A stretch of DNA of 64,000 nucleotides, from the NCBI GenBank assembly GCA_963793425.1, contig CAWCAG010000005.1, positions 800,001 to 864,000 on the forward strand. The letters are read 5' to 3'. Below are positions 51,001 to 57,000 of this stretch, in pieces (the first letter of the stretch is position 1; each line of letters starts with the position of its first letter). Made by a program: the position numbers. The DNA is from an uncultured cyanobacterium (lineage in GTDB: Bacteria; Cyanobacteriota; Cyanobacteriia; Cyanobacteriales; CAWCAG01).

Positions 51001-54000
51001 TCAACTTGTTGATCTGGAGAACGATATTCGGCCGCAATATCTCTTTTAAAACCAGTAAATAATCTTTCTGTTTGACTCGTTTGCAACCACTGAGATCGCC
51101 CTGCTTCCCCAAATAAGAGGTTGCCATTTTCTTGCACAAATACCAAACTTGGTACAACATTAACAGTACCAGAATCAACCAAAAAACTGCGGGAAATTTC
51201 AGGGAATTGTAGTACTCTGGGAACTTGAGTTGTAGAGTCTTGGAGACAAATGAGAGTATTGCTAGTACCGAAATCAATAGCAACAGTAGTCACTGCATTT
51301 CTTGAAACAGGGGTTTATCAATTCCAGTTTAGATCGTTGTTTGAAGTTTCCGCCAATAATTGATCCCAAATCGGTGTTTAGGAGCACAGATTATTTATGT
51401 AGAAGATTAATTGCTTGAGAGTTGGTTAAATTGAGTAACCTGACATCTCCTAATTCGAGGACTCGTTGAGGAACTTCTTGCTTAACTCCCAAAGCCTCCA
51501 GCACTTGATGCCCTAAAACCCTAGCTAGTAATGGGGGAACAGCATTTCCTACTTGGCGGAAACCGTGCCATTTTGTGCCATGAAGACGGAACCAGTCAGG
51601 AAAAGAATGCAATCGGGCTGCTTCTCTTACTGAGATCACCCTGTGGTATTGGGGATGAAGAGGACGAGGAGAAGTATAGCTACCTCTTTCTGCCCCTGTC
51701 CCTGCTCTTAAAGTGTGACAAGGTTTGTCCCAAACCAATCTTTGTAGATGGCTGATTCTTTCCCTTTTTCCTGGGAGAGTCTGGCAAAAACGGTTGAGAG
51801 AATTTGTCGTATGTTGGGTTTGGCAAGAACTAGTTAACTTAGTTCTGTTCCAGATACGTTTATAAGCAAAATTGTGGGGATCATCAATTATGCCTCGTAG
51901 GATTTTAACATAATTGCTGGCCCCTGCTTCCCAAATTTCCACTTGTTCTGGTTCTAAATCTACCTCATCGCTAGTTCGTAGTTCCAGGAAATCATCAAGA
52001 TTAGGTAAATCAGCGATCGCCTCCTTAACTGTCGTTGGCTGGGGGGTTAATTCTCCTGTAGGATAAGTTAAAGCTGTTTCTCCTCTTCTTGTCCCCAAAA
52101 GAAACAATCGCTGGCGTTCTTGGGGAACTCCGTAGGCAGAGGCGTTAAGTATTTGTATGGGTTCTGCTAACTGATAACCTGCTGCTTTGAACTCTTCTTT
52201 TAGCCCCGTTAAAATGGCAGCATACTTCTTTTGGGTCAAACCAGGAACATTCTCCATAATGAAGTAACGAGGTTGCAGTTCCTTGACTAAACGACAAAAG
52301 TGAAAGATTAAGTTATTGCGCTCATCTTTTAAGTTTCGTTTACCCATCACCGAAAAACCTTGACAAGGTGGCCCACCTATGAGTAAGCCAATTTCTTGGT
52401 TGAGGCTTTTTTCAATCTCTTGCCCAGAAAGAGTCGCAATATCAGCCCATAACACCTTGCTGTCAGGGAAATTAAACTGATGTACAGCCCCATGAACAGG
52501 GTCTTTTTCCACTGCGATCGCAACATCAAATCCTGCTTGTTCAATACCTAAAGAAAATCCCCCAGCACCAGCAAATAAGTCCACTGCTACGGGGCGGCAG
52601 TGAACTTCGGGGGGCTGGATACTGGGAAGATTAAAAGACAAATTACCAAAGGTTGTAACTTGACATGGTTAGATTAGCACAAATGTACTATTTTGAAGTT
52701 AAAGAAATTTTCCTTGGCCCTTGACAAGTTATGTAGTACTCGTGTAGTATTAGAGCAACAAGACAAATCAAACATCTAAAACAACATACTCAAACAACCG
52801 CCTTGGTTAGAGAACAATGGTTCACATCAGATTTGAAGGTCGTTCCTACGACGTTACCGAACGTCAATTAAGAGTAACTCACCAAATGAATAATACTCAA
52901 ATTAAGGAACGTTTAGCACAGCACTTTGATATCAATATAGATCGCTTTTCCGATTATGTGGTCGATAAACGACCTAGTGGCGATTTAATTGTACGTCCAG
53001 AAGCAGTTTACGGGTAAGTTAAAACTAAAACTTTTTTTCCCGCGTCCTAACCTCTTAAGCTTACATACTTTTTCGTTTGCGGAACGGAAGGTCACAGGTT
53101 CGAGTCCTGTCATTCCCGCTTAAAATGGGGATGTAGCTCAGTGGTAGAGCGTCAGTATCATAAAAGCTTAATTGACTTGCGCGGGACAACCTTTAAATTC
53201 TTGCTCCTGTTAAAAACAAGTACTTCGCGCCCTAACTTAAAAAGCTTACATACTAGCTCAATTAGTAGAGCGCTTGACTCAAGATCAAGAAGTTGCAGGT
53301 GCGATTCCTGCGTATACTCAACAGCTTTTTTAACTTGCGCGAGGTCACTTTTTTCCTCAATTTTTACCGCGTCCCAATTTGCAAAGCTTACATACTATAT
53401 TAATCCATCGGTCGTAGGTGCAAATCCTACCATCTCCGTTGCCAATGGAGATGTAGCTCAGTTAGTAGAGCAGTGGAATGTATCTGAAATAGCTTTGCTA
53501 ACTTACGCGGTTTGATTTTAAACAAAAATAAAATTACTTCCGTATCCTCATCTAAAAAGCTTACACACTAAGGAATCTGTTATCTGGAAAGATACGTGGG
53601 TTCAAATCCCACCAACCCCGTGGTTGTGGCGGAGTGGTTAAACGCGATAGATATTGTGAAATACAGCTTTTTTAACTTGTACGGAAATTCTTAACCCTAT
53701 AGGGAGGGCATCTATGTCTACAACAACTTTACAAGTTCTTGAACAACTGCAAACCTTTGCTTTCCAAGAAACACAGGAATTAGTAAAGCAAATCGAAGCA
53801 GCTTTTAATGTAGATGTTTCCTCCCAAGTAACCTTTGCCTATTCCCTTGATCCAATTAACTTAACTGGGGAGGATTCTGAAAAGCCAATGGAATTTGATG
53901 TAGTTTTAGAACAAGTCCCTGCTCAAAATAAGATTGCCATCATTAAAGCGTTGCGAAGTCTGACAGGACTGAGTTTGCGAGAATCTAAACAGATGGTTGA

Positions 54001-57000
54001 TTCTGCTCCTACAACCATCAATCAGTCAGTGGATCTCCAAATAGCTGAGGCAACGAAAATTCAATTAGAAGCAGTTGGTGCAACAGTTGCTTTGAAATAA
54101 GTAATTTGTTTTCGACTCACAAATGGTAAAATGGTAGCTGTCGCCGCGTCCCAACCGAGAGAGCATACATACTTCCCTGTCACGGAATACAAACAAGCTT
54201 TCTTAACTTGCGCGGCCTCAATAAATCGGCGACATCTATCTCTCAAACTTCGATTCATAGAGGAGGTAGTACAATGACAACTATGACCAAAGATGAACGC
54301 GACTTGCGTTTAGAAATGCTGAACAGTTTGCTAACAACCCCTCACCGTAAACTAGAAGAAGTAGCCGACTTGCATAAAATGCTCGTTGAGTTAGACCCCT
54401 TGTTTTACGGACACTTAGCAATTTGGTATCAACATAATGGTGATATACGTGACCACAAAGAGGTTTTTGTTGGTAACTTGCTGGCTAGTAAGTTAACTGT
54501 CCACAGGGATGCAGGGTTTACGATTTTGCAAAGCTTTCCTCCTTACCAGGTAGCACGAATTGTAGATTTCATGAAGCAGAAACTAGGTAAAATGCCTCGC
54601 TCTGCGCGCACTGCGGTACGTCGTTACTTAACTCACAGAGAAAAAGTTCCTGCTAAGTTCGATAGGGCGGCATTGCGAGGGCGTAAAGCCATGAAACACC
54701 TTTATGCTACCTTACACATCAAACCCAATCCTCGCGCTGATGCAATCCTCTTTAAGGAGCAACCCCCTGAAGGCAGTTTGGCATTAGCCCTAAAGCAGCT
54801 AGCAAAAGCAGAAACCCCTGCTCAACAGGCACAGATGATTGTGGAACATCGCATTCCCTACACTATTGCTGTAGGTGCTGTGAAACAGATTACCCCCACA
54901 GTGTTAGTCGCCTTGATTAACTCCATGTCTCCCCAAGAGGTGATCAACAACCTCAAGCCCCTTAAAGGCAAGGGAGCAATGGATCATCCTGATGTTAAAA
55001 CTCTCATTGATGCTAAGTTGGTTGCTGCACAAACTGACTCCCGTGTATCTGCTTTGAAAGGGAAGGTGGCAGCGAAAGCCGCAAGGTTAGATAAAGGCAC
55101 TACTGCCCAGCTAGAAAAGGTTATGGATACTCAGGTGAAACAGCGGGGTACAATCAAAAAGCCTACTGCTTTGTTGGTGGACAAGTCTAGCTCTATGAAC
55201 ACAGCTTTAGAAGTTGGTAAGCAAGTTGCAACCCTGATTTCTGGAGTTACAGAAGCTGATTTATTTGTCTATGCTTTTGACACCATGCCTTATGAAGTTA
55301 AGGCAACTGGTAAAAACCTTAGTGATTGGGATAAAGCTTTCCAATACTTAAGGGCTGGAGGTGCAACTAGCATCGGTTGCAGCATAGAGGCAATGCGCCT
55401 GAGAAAGCAGGTTGCAGAGCAAATCGTCATGGTAACTGATGAAGGAGAAAATACAGCTCCTTACTTTGACAAAGCCTACGACGACTACTGTAAAGACCTC
55501 TCTGTACGTCCTGATGTAGTTATTATTAGGGTTGGCCATAGCTGTGACTATGTAGAAAAGAGGTTGCAGAAGAAGCAAGTGCAAGTAGATACCTTAACTT
55601 TTGCTGGTGACTACTACTCTTTGCCTAACTTAGTGACTCTGTTGTCTCGTCCTTCTCGTTTAGAGTTGTTGATGGAGATTTTGGCAGTACCTTTACCTGT
55701 CAGGGATGACAAGTGAATTATATTAGGGTAAGTTAATTGCTTGCCCTATTTTTTTTGAGTCCCCTAAGCAATGTATTTCCGTTGCAGAAAGCAAGGAAAG
55801 AATGTGATGGTAGCGCCTCATAACACCAAAGTTTCTAGCCTAGCTAATACTTCTTCAAGAATTTCTGGAGTGGCCTTTTCAACAAATTTTGCTTTTCTTA
55901 CTCGCCAGTCTAAACTTTTGATGTGATCAACTAAGGCTACCCCCGTTGTTTTCATGCTTTCTTCTAAAAGTACTTCAAAGCTTAGTCCTTTAATCTGGTT
56001 AGTGATGGGACACATTAAAGCGAGAGAAGCTATTTTGTTGTAAGCAAAAGGTGAGATAATCAAAGCTGGGTGATAACCTGTTTGTTCTCTGCCTTTGTTG
56101 GGGTTAAAGTTGAGTTTAACAATATCTCCCCTTTCTGGTATATAGTTTGTACTTACCAAGCTTCTTTACCAATAGGGCTTCCTATGTCAGTTTCTGAGTG
56201 AAACTGTTTTGAGGTCATACCTTGTAGCAGCTCTTCTAGAGTGTACTTTTTTCTTCGAGGTGTGATGATTAGTTTTCCTTCTAAAACAGTTAAAGATACT
56301 GTTGTACCTTCGGTGCAATCAATTTCCTCAGCTAGGGCTTTAGGAATGCGAATTGCTAAGCTGTTTCCCCACTTAGTTATTGTAGAGGTCATAGTTATCT
56401 AATTTCACGACAGGCTAATTGTTATTGTATCTACTTTGAATATACATTGCCATAGTGTGCAATTATCCATTGGTAATAAAGTTATGTTTTTATACTTATC
56501 TAAGTTAATTCCTCTTTTTCTCTACCCTTTAGGATTGGCTTGTTTATTATTATTTATTGCTCTAGTTTTAGCTTGGAAATTTCCCCGTCGGCTTCCCATT
56601 CCCGTAGGTTTGGCACTCATAATCTTATTGTTATCTAGTAATGGTTGGGTAAGTAATGAAATTGTGCGATCGCTAGAATGGCAACATTTACCACCCCAAG
56701 AAATTCCTCAAGCTGATGCTATCGTAATCTTAGGTGGTTCCACAAGGCCCCAATCTCCACCTCGTGCCACAGTAGAAATTGCTGAACAAGGGGATCGCGT
56801 TATTTATGGTGGTTATTTGTACCAACAAAAAAAAGCACCCTTAATTATTCCCGCAGGAGGAAGAATATCTTGGAAGGGAGGAGGAGATAAATCAGAAGCA
56901 GAAGATATGGCTGCCTTATTAAAATTAATGGGCATTCCTAGCCAGGATATGATCTTAGAAAAAGAATCTCTTAATACCTATGAAAATGCCGTTAATGTCA

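What a model noticed while it worked through the whole genome (the two positions that open the first line are those of the whole stretch)
52722..55716. Unannotated Ro60-like operon: four Y-RNA-like genes, a second bL12 and a divergent TROVE/vWA protein
Four tandem ~125-150-nt RNA genes (and a fifth, minimal one) that share one closing stem (5' CGCG-YCCYAA..AAGCUUACAUAC / 3' AGCUU..AACUUGCGCG) and carry tRNA-like inserts (three with the permuted T-arm/acceptor/D-arm order of YrlA, one with a whole tRNA-like body with anticodon CAA) lie between a 66-aa ORF (g01348) and a paralog of ribosomal stalk protein bL12 (g01349, 44% to bL12) followed by a 480-aa protein without Pfam family (g01350). I read g01350 as a divergent bacterial Ro60 (Rsr) and the RNAs as its Y RNAs, so that this is a cyanobacterial Ro-Y RNA quality-control module of the translational-stress regulon that has recruited a dedicated bL12 copy, possibly to bring translational GTP [...]
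Evidence so far: Sequence read at C5:853041-853690. Rfam YrlA aligns to unit 3 over its whole model (36.5 bits, below the 69-bit cut; E 2.7e-6) and to unit 1 (22 bits), matching T-arm, closed acceptor, D-arm and the 3' AcUUG of the stem. A search of this genome with R1, the model of the SRL-GAC RNA whose only shared part is the stem, finds C5:853037-853187, 853222-853345, 853364-853513 and 854141-854218 (33-37 bits; call 157). The fourth tandem unit at 853540-853675 was read by eye, and the sequence of the minimal unit is in call 144. g01350: a profile of 47 diverse family members (29-62% identical to it) against PDB sequences puts Ro60 proteins on top: RO60 9nen E 2.6e-16, TROVE-domain proteins 9l5y/9kop E [...]
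(Added by a program. Inside this text positions count along the whole contig: contig position 800,001 is position 1 of the stretch shown here. "Call 12" and the like, gene names such as g00115 and contig names such as C1 are that model's own, and its searches are not shown. The text may have been shortened before it was handed on; [...] marks where a part breaks off. The agent that wrote the report below was given it as the finding of a first reader that could run no searches.)

Follow-up and report, generated by a model that had tools for sequence, protein, structure and literature searches.

The report
Divergent Ro60 operon with Y-like RNAs
A cyanobacterial operon encodes a previously unrecognised relative of the Ro60 ring protein, five small tRNA-mimicking RNAs that share one conserved stem, a small ubiquitin-like protein and a second copy of ribosomal stalk protein bL12, which looks like a new branch of the Ro/Y-RNA systems for handling RNA.

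Summary
Between a promoter-like site (52721) and a terminator-like hairpin (55724) lie a 66-aa ORF, four tandem RNAs, a bL12 paralog, a fifth minimal RNA and a 480-aa protein.

The 480-aa protein has no Pfam TROVE hit. Its AlphaFold model (pLDDT 92.6) matches Ro60/Rsr over its whole length, and its vWA MIDAS residues are invariant.

The five RNAs share a handle of two helices, invariant loops and UACAUAC. A model of it finds 93 further copies in 22 related loci, all on the protein's strand, with strong compensatory change. Apical modules are YrlA-like tRNA elbows (three), a tRNA body (one) or nothing (one). None reaches Rfam's YrlA cut-off.

New here:
- The 66-aa ORF is a conserved beta-grasp protein (22 of 23 loci). 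In relatives it is linked to a ThiF-type E1, a Cys protein and, in one locus, a JAB peptidase.
- The same handle carries 23S sarcin-ricin-loop and GTPase-centre mimics elsewhere in this genome and beside the gene in relatives.
- This family co-exists with canonical Rsr in 12 genomes.

The bL12 paralog is a rare accessory (5 of 23 loci). The regulon claim is unsupported. There are no expression data.

The parts
52721..52750 (+). Promoter-like site (TTGACA, 18 nt, TAGTAT). It overlaps a direct repeat TGTAGTA-N4-TGTAGTA at about 52732-52755.
   Evidence: 10 of 12 consensus matches, but the number of such sites in the region (4) is not above shuffles (5.5 +/- 2.4). The same TTGACA plus double TGTAGTA arrangement lies upstream of the 66-aa gene in 5 of 21 upstreams examined (window, L045, L046, L049, L053).
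52817..53017 (+). 66-aa protein (g01348): small beta-grasp, ubiquitin/MoaD-like, with an invariant C-terminal RPEAVYG.
   Evidence: Full-length homologue in 22 of 23 wide loci at 55-74% identity. No Pfam, NCBIfam or PADLOC family. AlphaFold pLDDT 90.9 with beta-beta-alpha-beta-beta order. The best fold matches are all beta-grasp proteins but weak: Foldseek E 0.2-1; VIA Z 5.1 to MoaD, rmsd 3.0 over 59-63 residues.
53039..53187 (+). RNA unit 1: handle plus a YrlA-like permuted tRNA elbow (T-arm, hairpin, D-arm).
   Evidence: R1 140.9 bits. Rfam YrlA 34.3 bits over model positions 24-84. Fold.
53224..53345 (+). RNA unit 2: handle plus a tRNA-like body (D-arm, anticodon arm with CAA, short variable loop, T-arm) and a 4-bp acceptor-like AUAC/GUAU helix.
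   Evidence: R1 101.3 bits. Rfam tRNA 50.5 bits over model positions 4-67 and ARAGORN 53247-53319. Fold z-score -2.67.
53366..53513 (+). RNA unit 3: handle plus a YrlA-like permuted tRNA elbow.
   Evidence: R1 134.3 bits. Rfam YrlA 36.5 bits over the whole model, the best YrlA match in the genome. Fold z-score -5.08.
53539..53687 (+). RNA unit 4: handle with compensatory changes in P1 (CCGUA/UACGG) plus a T-arm, a hairpin and a D-arm of the long-D-loop type.
   Evidence: R1 113.1 bits. The module was read from the sequence. It has no YrlA hit, and the fold was run on a stretch cut short at the 3' end.
53714..54100 (+). bL12 paralog (g01349), 128 aa. N-terminal helix and C-terminal domain are kept. 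The Ala/Gly-rich hinge is replaced.
   Evidence: The canonical bL12 lies at C5:794349.
54143..54218 (+). RNA unit 5: minimal handle RNA (76 nt) directly upstream of the Ro60-like gene.
   Evidence: R1 64.2 bits. Fold z-score -3.80. Units of 72-93 nt lie 104-326 nt before the gene in 15 of the 22 other loci.
54274..55716 (+). Ro60-like protein (g01350), 480 aa: a ring of alpha-helical repeats plus a vWA domain with a MIDAS site. ATG at 54274 behind GAGGAGG. The longer TTG frame from 54208 would overlap unit 5.
55724..55758 (+). Terminator-like hairpin followed by a run of eight T.
   Evidence: 10 pairs, 8 bases after the stop codon.

Best explanation
This is one transcription unit for a divergent Ro60-type ribonucleoprotein system.

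Parts and their likely roles:
- The 480-aa protein is a Ro60-like ring: helical repeats closed by a vWA/MIDAS domain.
- Each of the five RNAs has the same handle. It consists of a 6-bp closing helix P1, an asymmetric internal loop with invariant 5' CC-Y-R-A and 3' R-ACUU, an 8-bp helix P2, and UACAUAC.
- I infer that the handle is the docking site for the ring, as the conserved stem of Y RNAs is for Ro60.
- The variable top of each RNA is a module that imitates part of a tRNA: an elbow in units 1, 3 and 4, and a whole body with an anticodon arm in unit 2. Unit 5 has no module.

Inferred working:
- As in known Ro/Y-RNA particles, the RNA both gates the ring and tethers it to proteins that recognise the imitated RNA. 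This would direct the ring to tRNA- and ribosome-related substrates or enzymes for RNA surveillance, repair or decay under stress.
- The same handle carries copies of the 23S sarcin-ricin loop and GTPase-associated centre at a second locus of this genome, and next to the gene in relatives. The system as a whole therefore displays functional centres of the translation machinery.
- The bL12 paralog is an optional accessory. It would most plausibly load, through the cell's single uL10, onto that rRNA-mimic RNA or onto ribosomes.
- The 66-aa beta-grasp protein is a core subunit. It is probably activated at its C-terminal glycine by a ThiF-type E1 that is encoded beside the system in relatives and elsewhere in this genome.

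Shown: the fold, the family, the handle with covariation, the modules and the gene linkage. Inferred: binding, tethering, and the roles of bL12 and the beta-grasp protein.
For: Protein:
- The family has 952 representative clusters at E <= 0.001.
- A 62-member profile puts Ro60 (2.7e-17), phage phiLo Ro60 (8.8e-15), Xenopus Ro (1.5e-13) and Deinococcus Rsr (1.3e-8) on top.
- The AlphaFold model has pLDDT 92.6 and pTM 0.84.
- Its 11 best Foldseek matches are all Ro60, Rsr or TROVE proteins, with E 2e-11 to 6e-9, TM 0.53-0.70 and 456-532 aligned columns.
- The MIDAS residues D303, S305, S307 and D389 are invariant, and T365 is in at least 90% of rows.
- 16 of 62 members hit Pfam vWA_Ro60.

RNAs:
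- Model R1 finds 95 hits in 31 loci and 93 in 22 wider loci, all on the protein's strand.
- Covariation is strong.
- The loop nucleotides are invariant in 89-92 of 92 copies.
- The handle is unchanged beside a homologue from a distant branch of the family (about 48% identical to the window's protein) on a metagenome contig.
- All 11 protein-carrying genomes among the 16 with hits carry 2-6 copies each.
- The best YrlA matches of the genome are units 3 and 1.

Operon: one promoter-like site and one terminator-like site bracket it.

rRNA display:
- C9:705448-705657 has the same handle.
- It carries the 12-nt sarcin-ricin motif also found in the genome's own 23S.
- It has a 61-bit match to bacterial LSU rRNA positions 1080-1157, above the 50-bit cut-off.
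- Homologous 205-207-nt units lie downstream of the gene in 5 of 23 loci.

Beta-grasp and E1 link.

Known biology used: Ro60/Y-RNA tethering to PNPase and tRNA mimicry by YrlA (abstract, passages and supplements of PMC4201824; abstract and passages of PMC12135203).
Against: - There are no expression or binding data. No RNA run could be listed.
- Pfam TROVE does not hit the protein or any of 62 family members.
- The RNAs are below Rfam's YrlA cut-off and are not hit by Y_RNA.
- Their handle differs from the CGAA-type stem that PMC12135203 names for canonical bacterial Y RNAs.
- Single-sequence fold energies of units 1 and 4 are not better than shuffles (z -1.35 and -0.15; the unit 4 stretch was cut short).
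- The covariation counts come from an alignment fitted to the model.
- The bL12 paralog is absent from 18 of 23 loci, and rRNA-mimic units occur without it (L047, L058, L062). Its link to them is weak.
- In this genome the E1, the Cys protein and the rRNA-mimic RNA are dispersed.
- Three genomes have a single handle RNA but no Ro60-like protein match (G032, G059, G083).
Confidence: 0.7

Rival explanations
1. Decoy or sentinel system in a conflict over translation. The handle RNAs are baits that imitate the usual targets of RNA-directed toxins: tRNA anticodon arms, the sarcin-ricin loop and the GTPase centre. The Ro60-like ring holds them. Damage or binding of a bait is sensed and answered through the ubiquitin-like/E1 arm or through repair enzymes. 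The bL12 paralog makes the GTPase-centre bait look like a real stalk.
For: - The panel of imitated RNAs matches known toxin targets. That target list is established knowledge, recalled, not from a call.
- The 'anticodons' of the tRNA-body units vary freely and include att, cta, tta and aaa, as expected of baits and not of decoders.
- The second-locus rRNA mimic sits among a Macro domain, an RNA ligase with a tRNA-binding domain and a NADAR domain.
- Flanks hold toxin-antitoxin pairs and a DNA methylase.
- The E1 weakly matches the E1 part of the PADLOC 'E1-E2' models of anti-phage defence systems.
- The family is patchy, in 48 of 401 genomes. A 68%-identical copy lies in a Chthonomonadaceae genome, which suggests transfer.
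Against: - There is no PADLOC hit for the Ro60-like protein, the 66-aa protein or the Cys protein.
- No relative was found on viral contigs with this query.
- The window's neighbours are otherwise housekeeping genes.
- Nothing shows that the baits are cleaved or modified.
Confidence: 0.2
2. Sulfur-relay or RNA-modification system. The 66-aa protein is a MoaD/ThiS/TtuB-type sulfur carrier, charged by the ThiF-type enzyme. The conserved Cys protein uses it to modify the tRNA-like RNAs, or tRNAs presented by them. The Ro60-like protein is the scaffold.
For: - The best fold matches of the 66-aa model are MoaD subunits (Z 5.1).
- The gene trio of beta-grasp, unknown Cys protein and ThiF-type enzyme mirrors MoaD-MoaE-MoeB. 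A JAB peptidase follows in L081.
- The RNAs carry T-arms, and T-arms are the substrate of the Thermus TtuB pathway. The Thermus point is established knowledge, recalled.
Against: - The C-terminus is aromatic-Gly (YG or FG), not the Gly-Gly of known sulfur carriers.
- The Cys protein has no PP-loop or any known family.
- The fold scores are modest and equally compatible with ubiquitin-like modifiers.
Confidence: 0.07
3. The RNAs are tRNA-derived repeats, pseudogenes or transcript-processing signals with no specific link to the 480-aa protein. That protein would be a generic vWA protein.
For: - Cyanobacteria carry tRNA gene arrays. L061 has 11 ARAGORN-called tRNA genes upstream of its locus.
- Public annotation calls the protein 'hypothetical' or 'VWA domain-containing'.
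Against: - The protein matches the Ro60 fold over its full length.
- The handle is conserved and covaries.
- All copies beside the gene are on its strand.
- The handle co-occurs with the protein.
- It persists at about 48% protein identity.
Confidence: 0.03

Closest known systems
Bacterial Rsr (Ro60) with YrlA-type Y RNAs, including the canonical cyanobacterial Rsr of 533-534 aa (Chen et al. 2014, PMC4201824; abstract, passages and supplementary table read)
   Same: - Ring plus vWA/MIDAS protein.
- Small RNAs encoded within a few hundred bases on the same strand.
- 5' and 3' ends of each RNA form a stem.
- Apical T-arm, hairpin and D-arm in permuted order (units 1 and 3 align to the YrlA model).
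- Several RNAs per locus.
   Different: - The protein is shorter (477-480 aa) and invisible to Pfam TROVE.
- It co-exists with canonical Rsr in 12 of the 401 phylum genomes searched, so it is a paralogous clade, not the local orthologue.
- The RNA handle has its own invariant loops and UACAUAC.
- The RNAs score 34-37 bits against a 69-bit cut-off.
- There are extra module types: a whole tRNA body, none at all, and rRNA mimics.
- Partner genes differ: a beta-grasp protein, an E1 and a bL12 paralog, instead of RtcB/RtcA.
Deinococcus radiodurans Rsr-Y RNA-PNPase particle (RYPER), and Thermus phage phiLo Ro60 with Yrl1/Yrl2 (PMC12135203; abstract and passages read)
   Same: - The fold matches 2nvo and 9kop/9l5y (TM 0.63-0.70).
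- It supplies the working model: the RNA tethers the ring to another RNA-handling protein.
   Different: - No link to PNPase is shown here.
- The modules imitate tRNA and rRNA centres.
- Nothing here has been tested biochemically.
Prokaryotic ubiquitin-like/E1/JAB operons and MoaD-MoeB-type sulfur carriers (Iyer et al. 2006, PMC1779556; passages read)
   Same: - A small beta-grasp protein ending in Gly.
- A ThiF-family enzyme.
- A protein with one invariant Cys.
- A JAB peptidase in one distant locus.
   Different: - No Ro60, vWA or RNA genes are mentioned there: the terms 'vWA' and 'von Willebrand' occur 0 times in that text.
- The C-terminus is YG, not GG.
- The Cys protein has no known family.
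Ribosomal stalk protein bL12 (L7/L12)
   Same: The paralog scores above the NCBIfam equivalog cut-off. It keeps the N-terminal helix and the C-terminal domain.
   Different: - It is a second copy, 42% identical, and fast-evolving: branch lengths 0.64-2.7 against 0.03-0.26 for canonical copies.
- The hinge is replaced.
- It is encoded away from rplJ, inside the RNA array.

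Membership tests
Ro60 / Rsr (TROVE + vWA) | Closed ring of alpha-helical (HEAT-like) repeats capped by a C-terminal vWA domain | tested here: met
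   AlphaFold pLDDT 92.6. The 11 best Foldseek PDB matches are all Ro60, Rsr or phage Ro60, covering 456-532 columns with TM 0.53-0.70.
Ro60 / Rsr (TROVE + vWA) | MIDAS motif (DxSxS ... T ... D) in the vWA domain | tested here: met
   D303, S305, S307 and D389 are invariant, and T365 is in at least 90% of 62 members.
Ro60 / Rsr (TROVE + vWA) | Match to Pfam TROVE (PF05731) above its cut-off | tested here: not met
   No hit for the protein. 0 of 62 family members hit at E <= 0.01. No hit in the genome, while the controls Deinococcus and Bacteroides did hit. 16 of 62 members do hit Pfam vWA_Ro60.
Ro60 / Rsr (TROVE + vWA) | Sequence-profile relationship to solved Ro60 proteins across ring and vWA | tested here: met
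   Profile of 62 members: 9nen 2.7e-17; 9l5y/9kop 8.8e-15 over profile positions 24-394; 1yvp 1.5e-13; 2nvo 1.3e-8. The single sequence alone finds nothing.
Ro60 / Rsr (TROVE + vWA) | Binds the conserved stem of adjacent small RNAs, and single-stranded ends through the central hole | not testable with these tools
   Only linkage is shown: same-strand RNAs beside the gene in 23 of 23 loci, and co-occurrence.
YrlA (Rfam RF02553) | Score at or above the gathering cut-off (69 bits) | tested here: not met
   Unit 3 scores 36.5 bits and unit 1 scores 34.3 bits. Units 2, 4 and 5 have no hit.
YrlA (Rfam RF02553) | Encoded within about 4 kb of a Ro60 gene, with 5' and 3' ends paired into a stem | tested here: met
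   Units lie 56-1235 nt upstream on the same strand. The stem is supported by covariation.
YrlA (Rfam RF02553) | tRNA-like domain with T-arm, acceptor-like hairpin and D-arm in permuted order | tested here: met
   Alignments of units 3 and 1 to the model's T-arm, hairpin and D-arm. Unit 4 was judged by eye only. Units 2 and 5 have other architectures.
YrlA (Rfam RF02553) | Canonical stem sequence (the CGAA-type motif named in PMC12135203; 'ggCgaAUGC' in the Rfam consensus) | tested here: not met
   The handle reads CGCG-Y-CC-Y-A-A ... R-ACUUG-CGCG. Only the 3' ACUUG is shared with the Rfam consensus shown.
Metazoan-type Y RNA (Rfam RF00019) | Match to the family model | tested here: not met
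   No match in the locus at E <= 10. The three weak genome hits lie elsewhere.
bL12 (L7/L12) | C-terminal domain and N-terminal dimerisation/uL10-binding helix | tested here: met
   PF00542 78.7 bits. PF16320 scores only 16.5 bits (cut-off 25) in this copy but 39.9 bits in the L052 paralog. TIGR00855 99.8 bits against 84.4. Alignment.
bL12 (L7/L12) | Sits on the ribosomal stalk through uL10 | not testable with these tools
   The genome has one uL10 gene. Incorporation is unknown.
Ubiquitin-like beta-grasp modifiers or carriers (ubiquitin, MoaD, ThiS) | Beta-grasp fold | tested here: inconclusive
   The model shows beta-beta-alpha-beta-beta at pLDDT 90.9. All best matches are beta-grasp proteins, but scores are weak: Foldseek E >= 0.23 and VIA Z <= 5.1.
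Ubiquitin-like beta-grasp modifiers or carriers (ubiquitin, MoaD, ThiS) | Exposed C-terminal glycine and a linked E1-type adenylating enzyme | tested here: met
   The terminal G is invariant in 23 of 23 sequences, but as YG, not GG. A ThiF-family gene lies within 6 kb in 13 of 23 loci and directly in the L081 operon. In this genome it is at C9:610241.

The most novel reading that the evidence does not exclude
A second, unrecognised Ro60-type system exists in which one ring protein presents a whole panel of imitations of the translation machinery on a common RNA handle. The panel includes tRNA elbows, complete tRNA bodies, the sarcin-ricin loop with the GTPase-associated centre, and possibly the 23S helix-69 region. 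In some genomes a private bL12 turns the rRNA mimic into a miniature factor-binding stalk. The particle is wired to a ubiquitin-like/E1 pathway. It would serve as a bait-and-alarm device, or a repair platform, against toxins and phages that attack tRNA and rRNA.
Probability: 0.2. Interest if true: 0.92.

Novelty: new variant of a known kind. Interest (0 to 1): 0.78.

Why it matters
Ro60 and Y RNAs are conserved from bacteria to humans, yet what the variable part of a Y RNA is for remains largely open.

- Here a large family (952 representative clusters) is annotated only as 'hypothetical' or 'VWA domain-containing'. It turns out to be a Ro60-type ring with its own RNA handle.
- It has a modular set of partner RNAs that imitate tRNA and, in relatives and at a second locus of this genome, two functional centres of 23S rRNA.
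- That makes the 'Y RNA as adaptor' idea directly testable with natural, swappable modules.
- It also links Ro biology for the first time to a ubiquitin-like/E1 pathway and to a ribosomal stalk paralog.
- It shows that current Pfam and Rfam models miss a whole branch of these systems.

I found no description of it in the held library. The most relevant comparative paper (Burroughs and Aravind 2016) is not held, so prior mention there cannot be excluded.

Tried and rejected
- Expression: no RNA holder was listed for window 52700-55800.
- Complex prediction of the Ro60-like protein with the 66-aa protein gave 'no answer' (score 0.00). This is no evidence either way.
- The single-sequence PDB search found nothing relevant.
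- The Rfam Y_RNA model did not hit the locus.
- The 180-184-nt class of relatives contains a stretch closely resembling the 23S stretch just before helix 69, as read by eye. Neither Rfam LSU models nor blastn to the genome reported it, so it stays a lead.
- Regulon idea: the strict promoter-plus-repeat pattern occurs once in the genome. A looser repeat occurs at two more sites, with no related genes nearby.
- bL12 tree: whether the paralogs share a single origin was neither shown nor excluded (42% of bootstrap trees). The first tree was invalid because two rows were cut from the wrong frame.
- Viral contigs: no relative was found with the window protein.
- Metagenome scan with P0094: nothing.
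- PADLOC: no hit for the Ro60-like, the 66-aa, the Cys protein or the bL12 paralog.
- Protein atlas: no usable hit for the Cys protein. Only unnamed clusters came up for the 66-aa protein, one of them with phage members, which I did not check.
- The Burroughs and Aravind 2016 paper could not be read.
- The 124-aa ORF at 53141-53515 overlaps units 1-3. I treat it as spurious.

Full report
**Place and coordinates.**
The window is G000:C5:800001-864000. With that correction everything described lies at 52722-55716.

The ORF list and the sequence show the following, all on the + strand:
- a 66-aa ORF at 52817-53017;
- about 700 nt without a credible ORF;
- a 128-aa ORF at 53714-54100;
- a 170-nt spacer;
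- a 480-aa ORF starting at ATG 54274 behind GAGGAGG and ending at 55716.

A promoter-like site (TTGACA, 18 nt, TAGTAT; 10 of 12 matches) lies at 52721-52750. A 10-pair hairpin followed by eight T lies at 55724-55758. These are consensus matches only, and their number in the region is not above shuffles. They do bracket the block exactly.

Upstream, on the other strand, is a C-5 DNA methylase. Downstream is a MazE/MazF-like pair. Further out the genes are ordinary: DnaK, an Hsp70-WD40 protein, PAP2, DUF218 and a PMT-type glycosyltransferase.

**The RNAs.**
Five stretches share the same ends: u1 53039-53187, u2 53224-53345, u3 53366-53513, u4 53539-53687 and u5 54143-54218.

I wrote the shared structure as a 6-bp closing helix P1 and an 8-bp helix P2, separated by an asymmetric internal loop. 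From the five units I built covariance model R1.

Search results with R1:
- In the genome it finds exactly these five units plus one more at C9:705448-705657.
- In 31 loci around homologues of the 480-aa protein it finds 95 matches.
- In 22 loci with 6-kb flanks it finds 93 matches. After orienting each locus on the protein gene, all 93 are on its strand.
- There are 1 to 6 units upstream per locus. In five loci one further unit of 205-207 nt lies downstream.

On an alignment of 92 matches (fitted to the model, which favours it), one search gives:
- 94.4% of cells form standard pairs, against 80.5 +/- 0.6% in shuffles.
- 11 of 14 pairs show changes on both sides.
- 212 cells carry double changes, against 67.9 +/- 8.2 in shuffles.
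- Sliding the 3' partner by 1-3 columns drops pairing to 31-53%.

The unpaired nucleotides are nearly invariant:
- CC after P1 in 91-92 of 92 copies, followed by Y, mostly A, then A in 92 of 92.
- UACA-Y-AC after P2.
- R-ACUU before the 3' strand of P1 (A, C and U in 92 of 92; the last U in 89 of 92).

Invariant loops between covarying helices are what a protein-recognition site looks like.

**Modules on the handle.**
- Rfam's YrlA model aligns to u3 over its whole length (36.5 bits) and to u1 over the T-arm, hairpin and D-arm part (34.3 bits). Both are under the 69-bit cut-off. They are the two best YrlA matches in the entire genome.
- u4 has the same order of elements as read from the sequence, with compensatory changes in P1 (CCGUA/UACGG). 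It has no YrlA hit.
- u2 contains a tRNA-like body: D-arm, anticodon arm, 5-nt variable loop and T-arm. Rfam tRNA scores 50.5 bits over model positions 4-67, and ARAGORN gives anticodon CAA.
- In u2 the conserved AUAC of the handle pairs with a downstream GUAU as a 4-bp acceptor-like helix.
- u2 has no full acceptor stem. It also lacks the long variable arm that I recall as typical of bacterial leucine tRNAs. It is therefore a mimic, not a decoder.
- In the other loci the corresponding units carry 'anticodons' att, tag, cat, cta, taa, tta, ctt, gta, caa, tga, aaa and tgg. That speaks against decoding.
- u5 is a minimal handle with a short hairpin. Such units of 72-93 nt lie 104-326 nt before the protein gene in 15 of the 22 other loci.
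- The metazoan Y_RNA model does not hit the locus.
- Single-sequence folding supports u2, u3 and u5 (z -2.7, -5.1, -3.8). It does not support u1 (z -1.35) or the truncated u4 stretch (z -0.15).

**The 480-aa protein.**
- Pfam gives only a sub-threshold VWA_2 hit. NCBIfam and PADLOC give nothing.
- A search of 1.84 billion representatives finds 952 clusters at E <= 0.001.
- In an alignment of 62 full-length members (28-62% identical to the query), D303, S305, S307 and D389 are invariant and T365 is nearly so. Together these form a complete MIDAS site.
- Its profile puts human Ro60 (2.7e-17), the Thermus phage phiLo Ro60 (8.8e-15, covering profile positions 24-394), Xenopus Ro (1.5e-13) and Deinococcus Rsr (1.3e-8) on top of the PDB, ahead of generic vWA domains.
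- None of the 62 members hits Pfam TROVE. 16 hit vWA_Ro60.
- The AlphaFold model is confident (pLDDT 92.6, pTM 0.84).
- Its 11 best Foldseek matches are all Ro60, Rsr or phage Ro60, aligned over 456-532 columns with TM 0.53-0.70. Isolated vWA domains follow, with E values about six orders of magnitude weaker.
- Public records call the family 'hypothetical protein' or 'VWA domain-containing protein'.

**Relation to canonical Rsr.**
- The genome has no Pfam-TROVE protein.
- Among 401 genomes of the phylum, 48 carry this family and 52 carry a Pfam-TROVE protein. By comparing the two handle lists, 12 genomes carry both.
- Chen et al. 2014 list the canonical cyanobacterial Rsr as 533-534 aa, with a YrlA 100-500 nt away (PMC4201824, supplementary table).
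- The present family is therefore a separate, co-existing clade with its own RNA handle, not a fast-evolving orthologue.
- In a search of 151 phylum genomes with R1, 16 had hits. Eleven of them are protein carriers, each with 2-6 units. Three non-carriers had one full-length unit each (G032, G059, G083). Two had partial, tRNA-like matches. I could not verify that no protein carrier in that sample was missed.
- On metagenome contig L081, the Ro60-like gene is 87% identical to family member P0005, which is itself 48% identical to the window's protein. Two units precede it, with the same CCCGA, UUACAUAC and GACUUG elements and with different P1 and P2 sequences.

**The 66-aa ORF.**
- This is the gene most tightly linked to the Ro60-like gene. 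Full-length homologues (55-74% identical) lie at the head of the RNA array in 22 of 23 wide loci. L063 lacks it.
- 21 positions are invariant, including the C-terminal R-P-E-A-V-Y-G.
- It has no family in Pfam, NCBIfam or PADLOC.
- The AlphaFold model (pLDDT 90.9) is a beta-beta-alpha-beta-beta beta-grasp with a free tail.
- Every top structural match is a ubiquitin-like or MoaD-type protein, but the scores are modest: Foldseek E 0.23-1.2; VIA Z 5.1 to MoaD, rmsd 3.0 over 59-63 residues.
- In 13 of 23 loci, a 280-aa protein of no known family with one invariant cysteine and a 215-aa ThiF-family enzyme (Pfam 92 bits) lie downstream.
- In L081 the order is: beta-grasp (ending RPEAIFG), two RNAs, Ro60-like, Cys protein, ThiF enzyme, Prok-JAB peptidase.
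- In the present genome the Cys protein and the ThiF enzyme are elsewhere, at C9:423877 and C9:610241.
- I read this as a ubiquitin-like activation arm of the system. Whether it conjugates or carries sulfur cannot be told. The YG/FG terminus argues against a classical sulfur carrier.

**The bL12 paralog.**
- It is a true bL12 by score and 42% identical to the canonical copy at C5:794349.
- It keeps the N-terminal helix and the C-terminal domain. The Ala/Gly/Met-rich hinge is replaced by an unrelated linker.
- In my sample it is present in 5 of 23 loci: the window, L001, L048, L052 and L056. The L056 copy has an in-frame TAG and only the C-terminal part.
- Each of the four other genomes also has a canonical copy.
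- The paralogs sit on long branches. Their single origin is unresolved.
- There is only one uL10 gene.
- Other loci carry unrelated proteins of no known family in the same slot: 153 aa in 6 loci, 240 aa in 8, 156 aa in 2. The slot therefore looks like a position for variable accessory proteins.

**The rRNA-mimic RNA.**
- The sixth R1 match of the genome (C9:705448-705657) has the same handle.
- Inside it are the 12-nt sarcin-ricin motif that also occurs in the genome's own 23S and a 77-nt stretch matching bacterial LSU rRNA positions 1080-1157 at 61 bits, above the 50-bit cut-off. By my recall of 23S structure, those positions are the GTPase-associated centre.
- Homologous units of 205-207 nt lie downstream of the Ro60-like gene in L047, L048, L052, L058 and L062. 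They are 71-73% identical to the C9 RNA over about 209 aligned positions. Four of the five (all but L048) also match the 23S genes at 72-77% over 69 nt.
- In this genome the RNA lies between a Macro-domain protein, a retropepsin-like protein and two tRNA genes on one side, and an RNA ligase with a tRNA-binding domain and a NADAR protein on the other.
- Four of the five genomes with a bL12 paralog have such a unit: the window's genome, G180, G044 and G212. None was detected in G401 at the threshold used.
- Such units also occur without the paralog (L047, L058, L062).

**Mechanism.**
By analogy with Ro60/Y-RNA particles, I propose the following:
- The ring binds the handle. In known particles the RNA stem binds the ring and the rest of the RNA tethers a partner such as PNPase (abstracts and passages of PMC4201824 and PMC12135203).
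- Each module recruits proteins that recognise the imitated RNA.
- The ring acts on tRNA- or ribosome-derived RNAs in surveillance, repair or decay.
- The beta-grasp/E1 arm modifies a component.
- The bL12 paralog is an optional add-on.

A serious rival is a bait-and-alarm system against toxins that target tRNA and rRNA. The evidence does not separate the two.

Shown: the fold, the family, the handle with covariation, the module types and the gene linkage. Binding, processing, expression and function are all inferred.

**Novelty.**
- I found no description of this family, handle or gene combination in the held library.
- Iyer et al. 2006 does not mention vWA.
- Burroughs and Aravind 2016, the most likely place for a prior mention, is not held.
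- I rate it a new variant of a known kind: a Ro60-type RNP with a new handle, a modular RNA panel and new partner genes.

Noticed in passing
G000:C9:705448-705657 (L044:1501-1710), outside the window: A 210-nt RNA with the same handle. It carries a sarcin-ricin-loop motif and a 61-bit match to 23S positions 1080-1157. It is flanked by a Macro domain, a retropepsin-like protein, two tRNA genes, an RNA ligase with a tRNA-binding domain, and a NADAR protein.
   Followed up: partly
L045:5403-5586, L047:5174-5353, L048:9396-9577, L056:8685-8866 and six more loci: A 180-184-nt class of handle RNAs. Its insert begins with a stretch closely resembling the genome's own 23S just before helix 69 (read by eye). 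Rfam LSU models and blastn did not report it.
   Followed up: partly
L049 (116 nt), L053 (131 nt) and L057 (140 nt): units 235-297 nt upstream of the gene: A further class of handle RNAs shares an insert (GGUGCGUA ... ACGCUGCAAGCCUGA ... CAGGCA) with no match I could name.
   Followed up: no
L047:9004-9059: A second match to the 23S GTPase-centre region (46.4 bits, just under the 50-bit cut-off), outside any R1 unit.
   Followed up: no
Related loci, e.g. L056:7796-8515, L050:5328-5786, L045:4586-5053: Three conserved proteins of no known family sit inside the RNA arrays: 240 aa in 8 loci, 153 aa in 6, 156 aa in 2. The 153-aa one occupies the same slot as the bL12 paralog.
   Followed up: partly
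window 51391-52641 (-) and 55818-56392 (-): A C-5 cytosine DNA methylase lies directly upstream. The same family flanks the operon in L045, L046 and L063. A MazE/MazF-like pair lies directly downstream.
   Followed up: no
window 52732-52755; G000:C5:90661 and C7:349138: A direct repeat TGTAGTA-N4-TGTAGTA sits inside the promoter-like site and is conserved in five loci. Two looser copies elsewhere in the genome resemble each other, including about 40 nt downstream. They are not next to related genes.
   Followed up: partly
G000:C9:707950-708083 (L038:1501-1634): A weak full-length YrlA match (24.3 bits, E 0.017) lies 2.3 kb downstream of the rRNA-mimic RNA, between the NADAR gene and a large gene on the other strand.
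   Followed up: no
L061:30-3167: An array of 11 ARAGORN-called tRNA genes lies upstream of that genome's Ro60-like locus.
   Followed up: no
G180:C1:83019-83219 (L079): A third protein with a bL12 C-terminal domain (64 bits). It is fused to a Cys-rich N-terminal part and lies away from both the ribosomal and the Ro60-like loci.
   Followed up: no
L002 (Chthonomonadaceae MAG, genome contigs): A complete small version of the system (66-aa gene, two handle RNAs, Ro60-like gene at 68% identity) sits in a non-cyanobacterial genome. This suggests horizontal transfer.
   Followed up: partly
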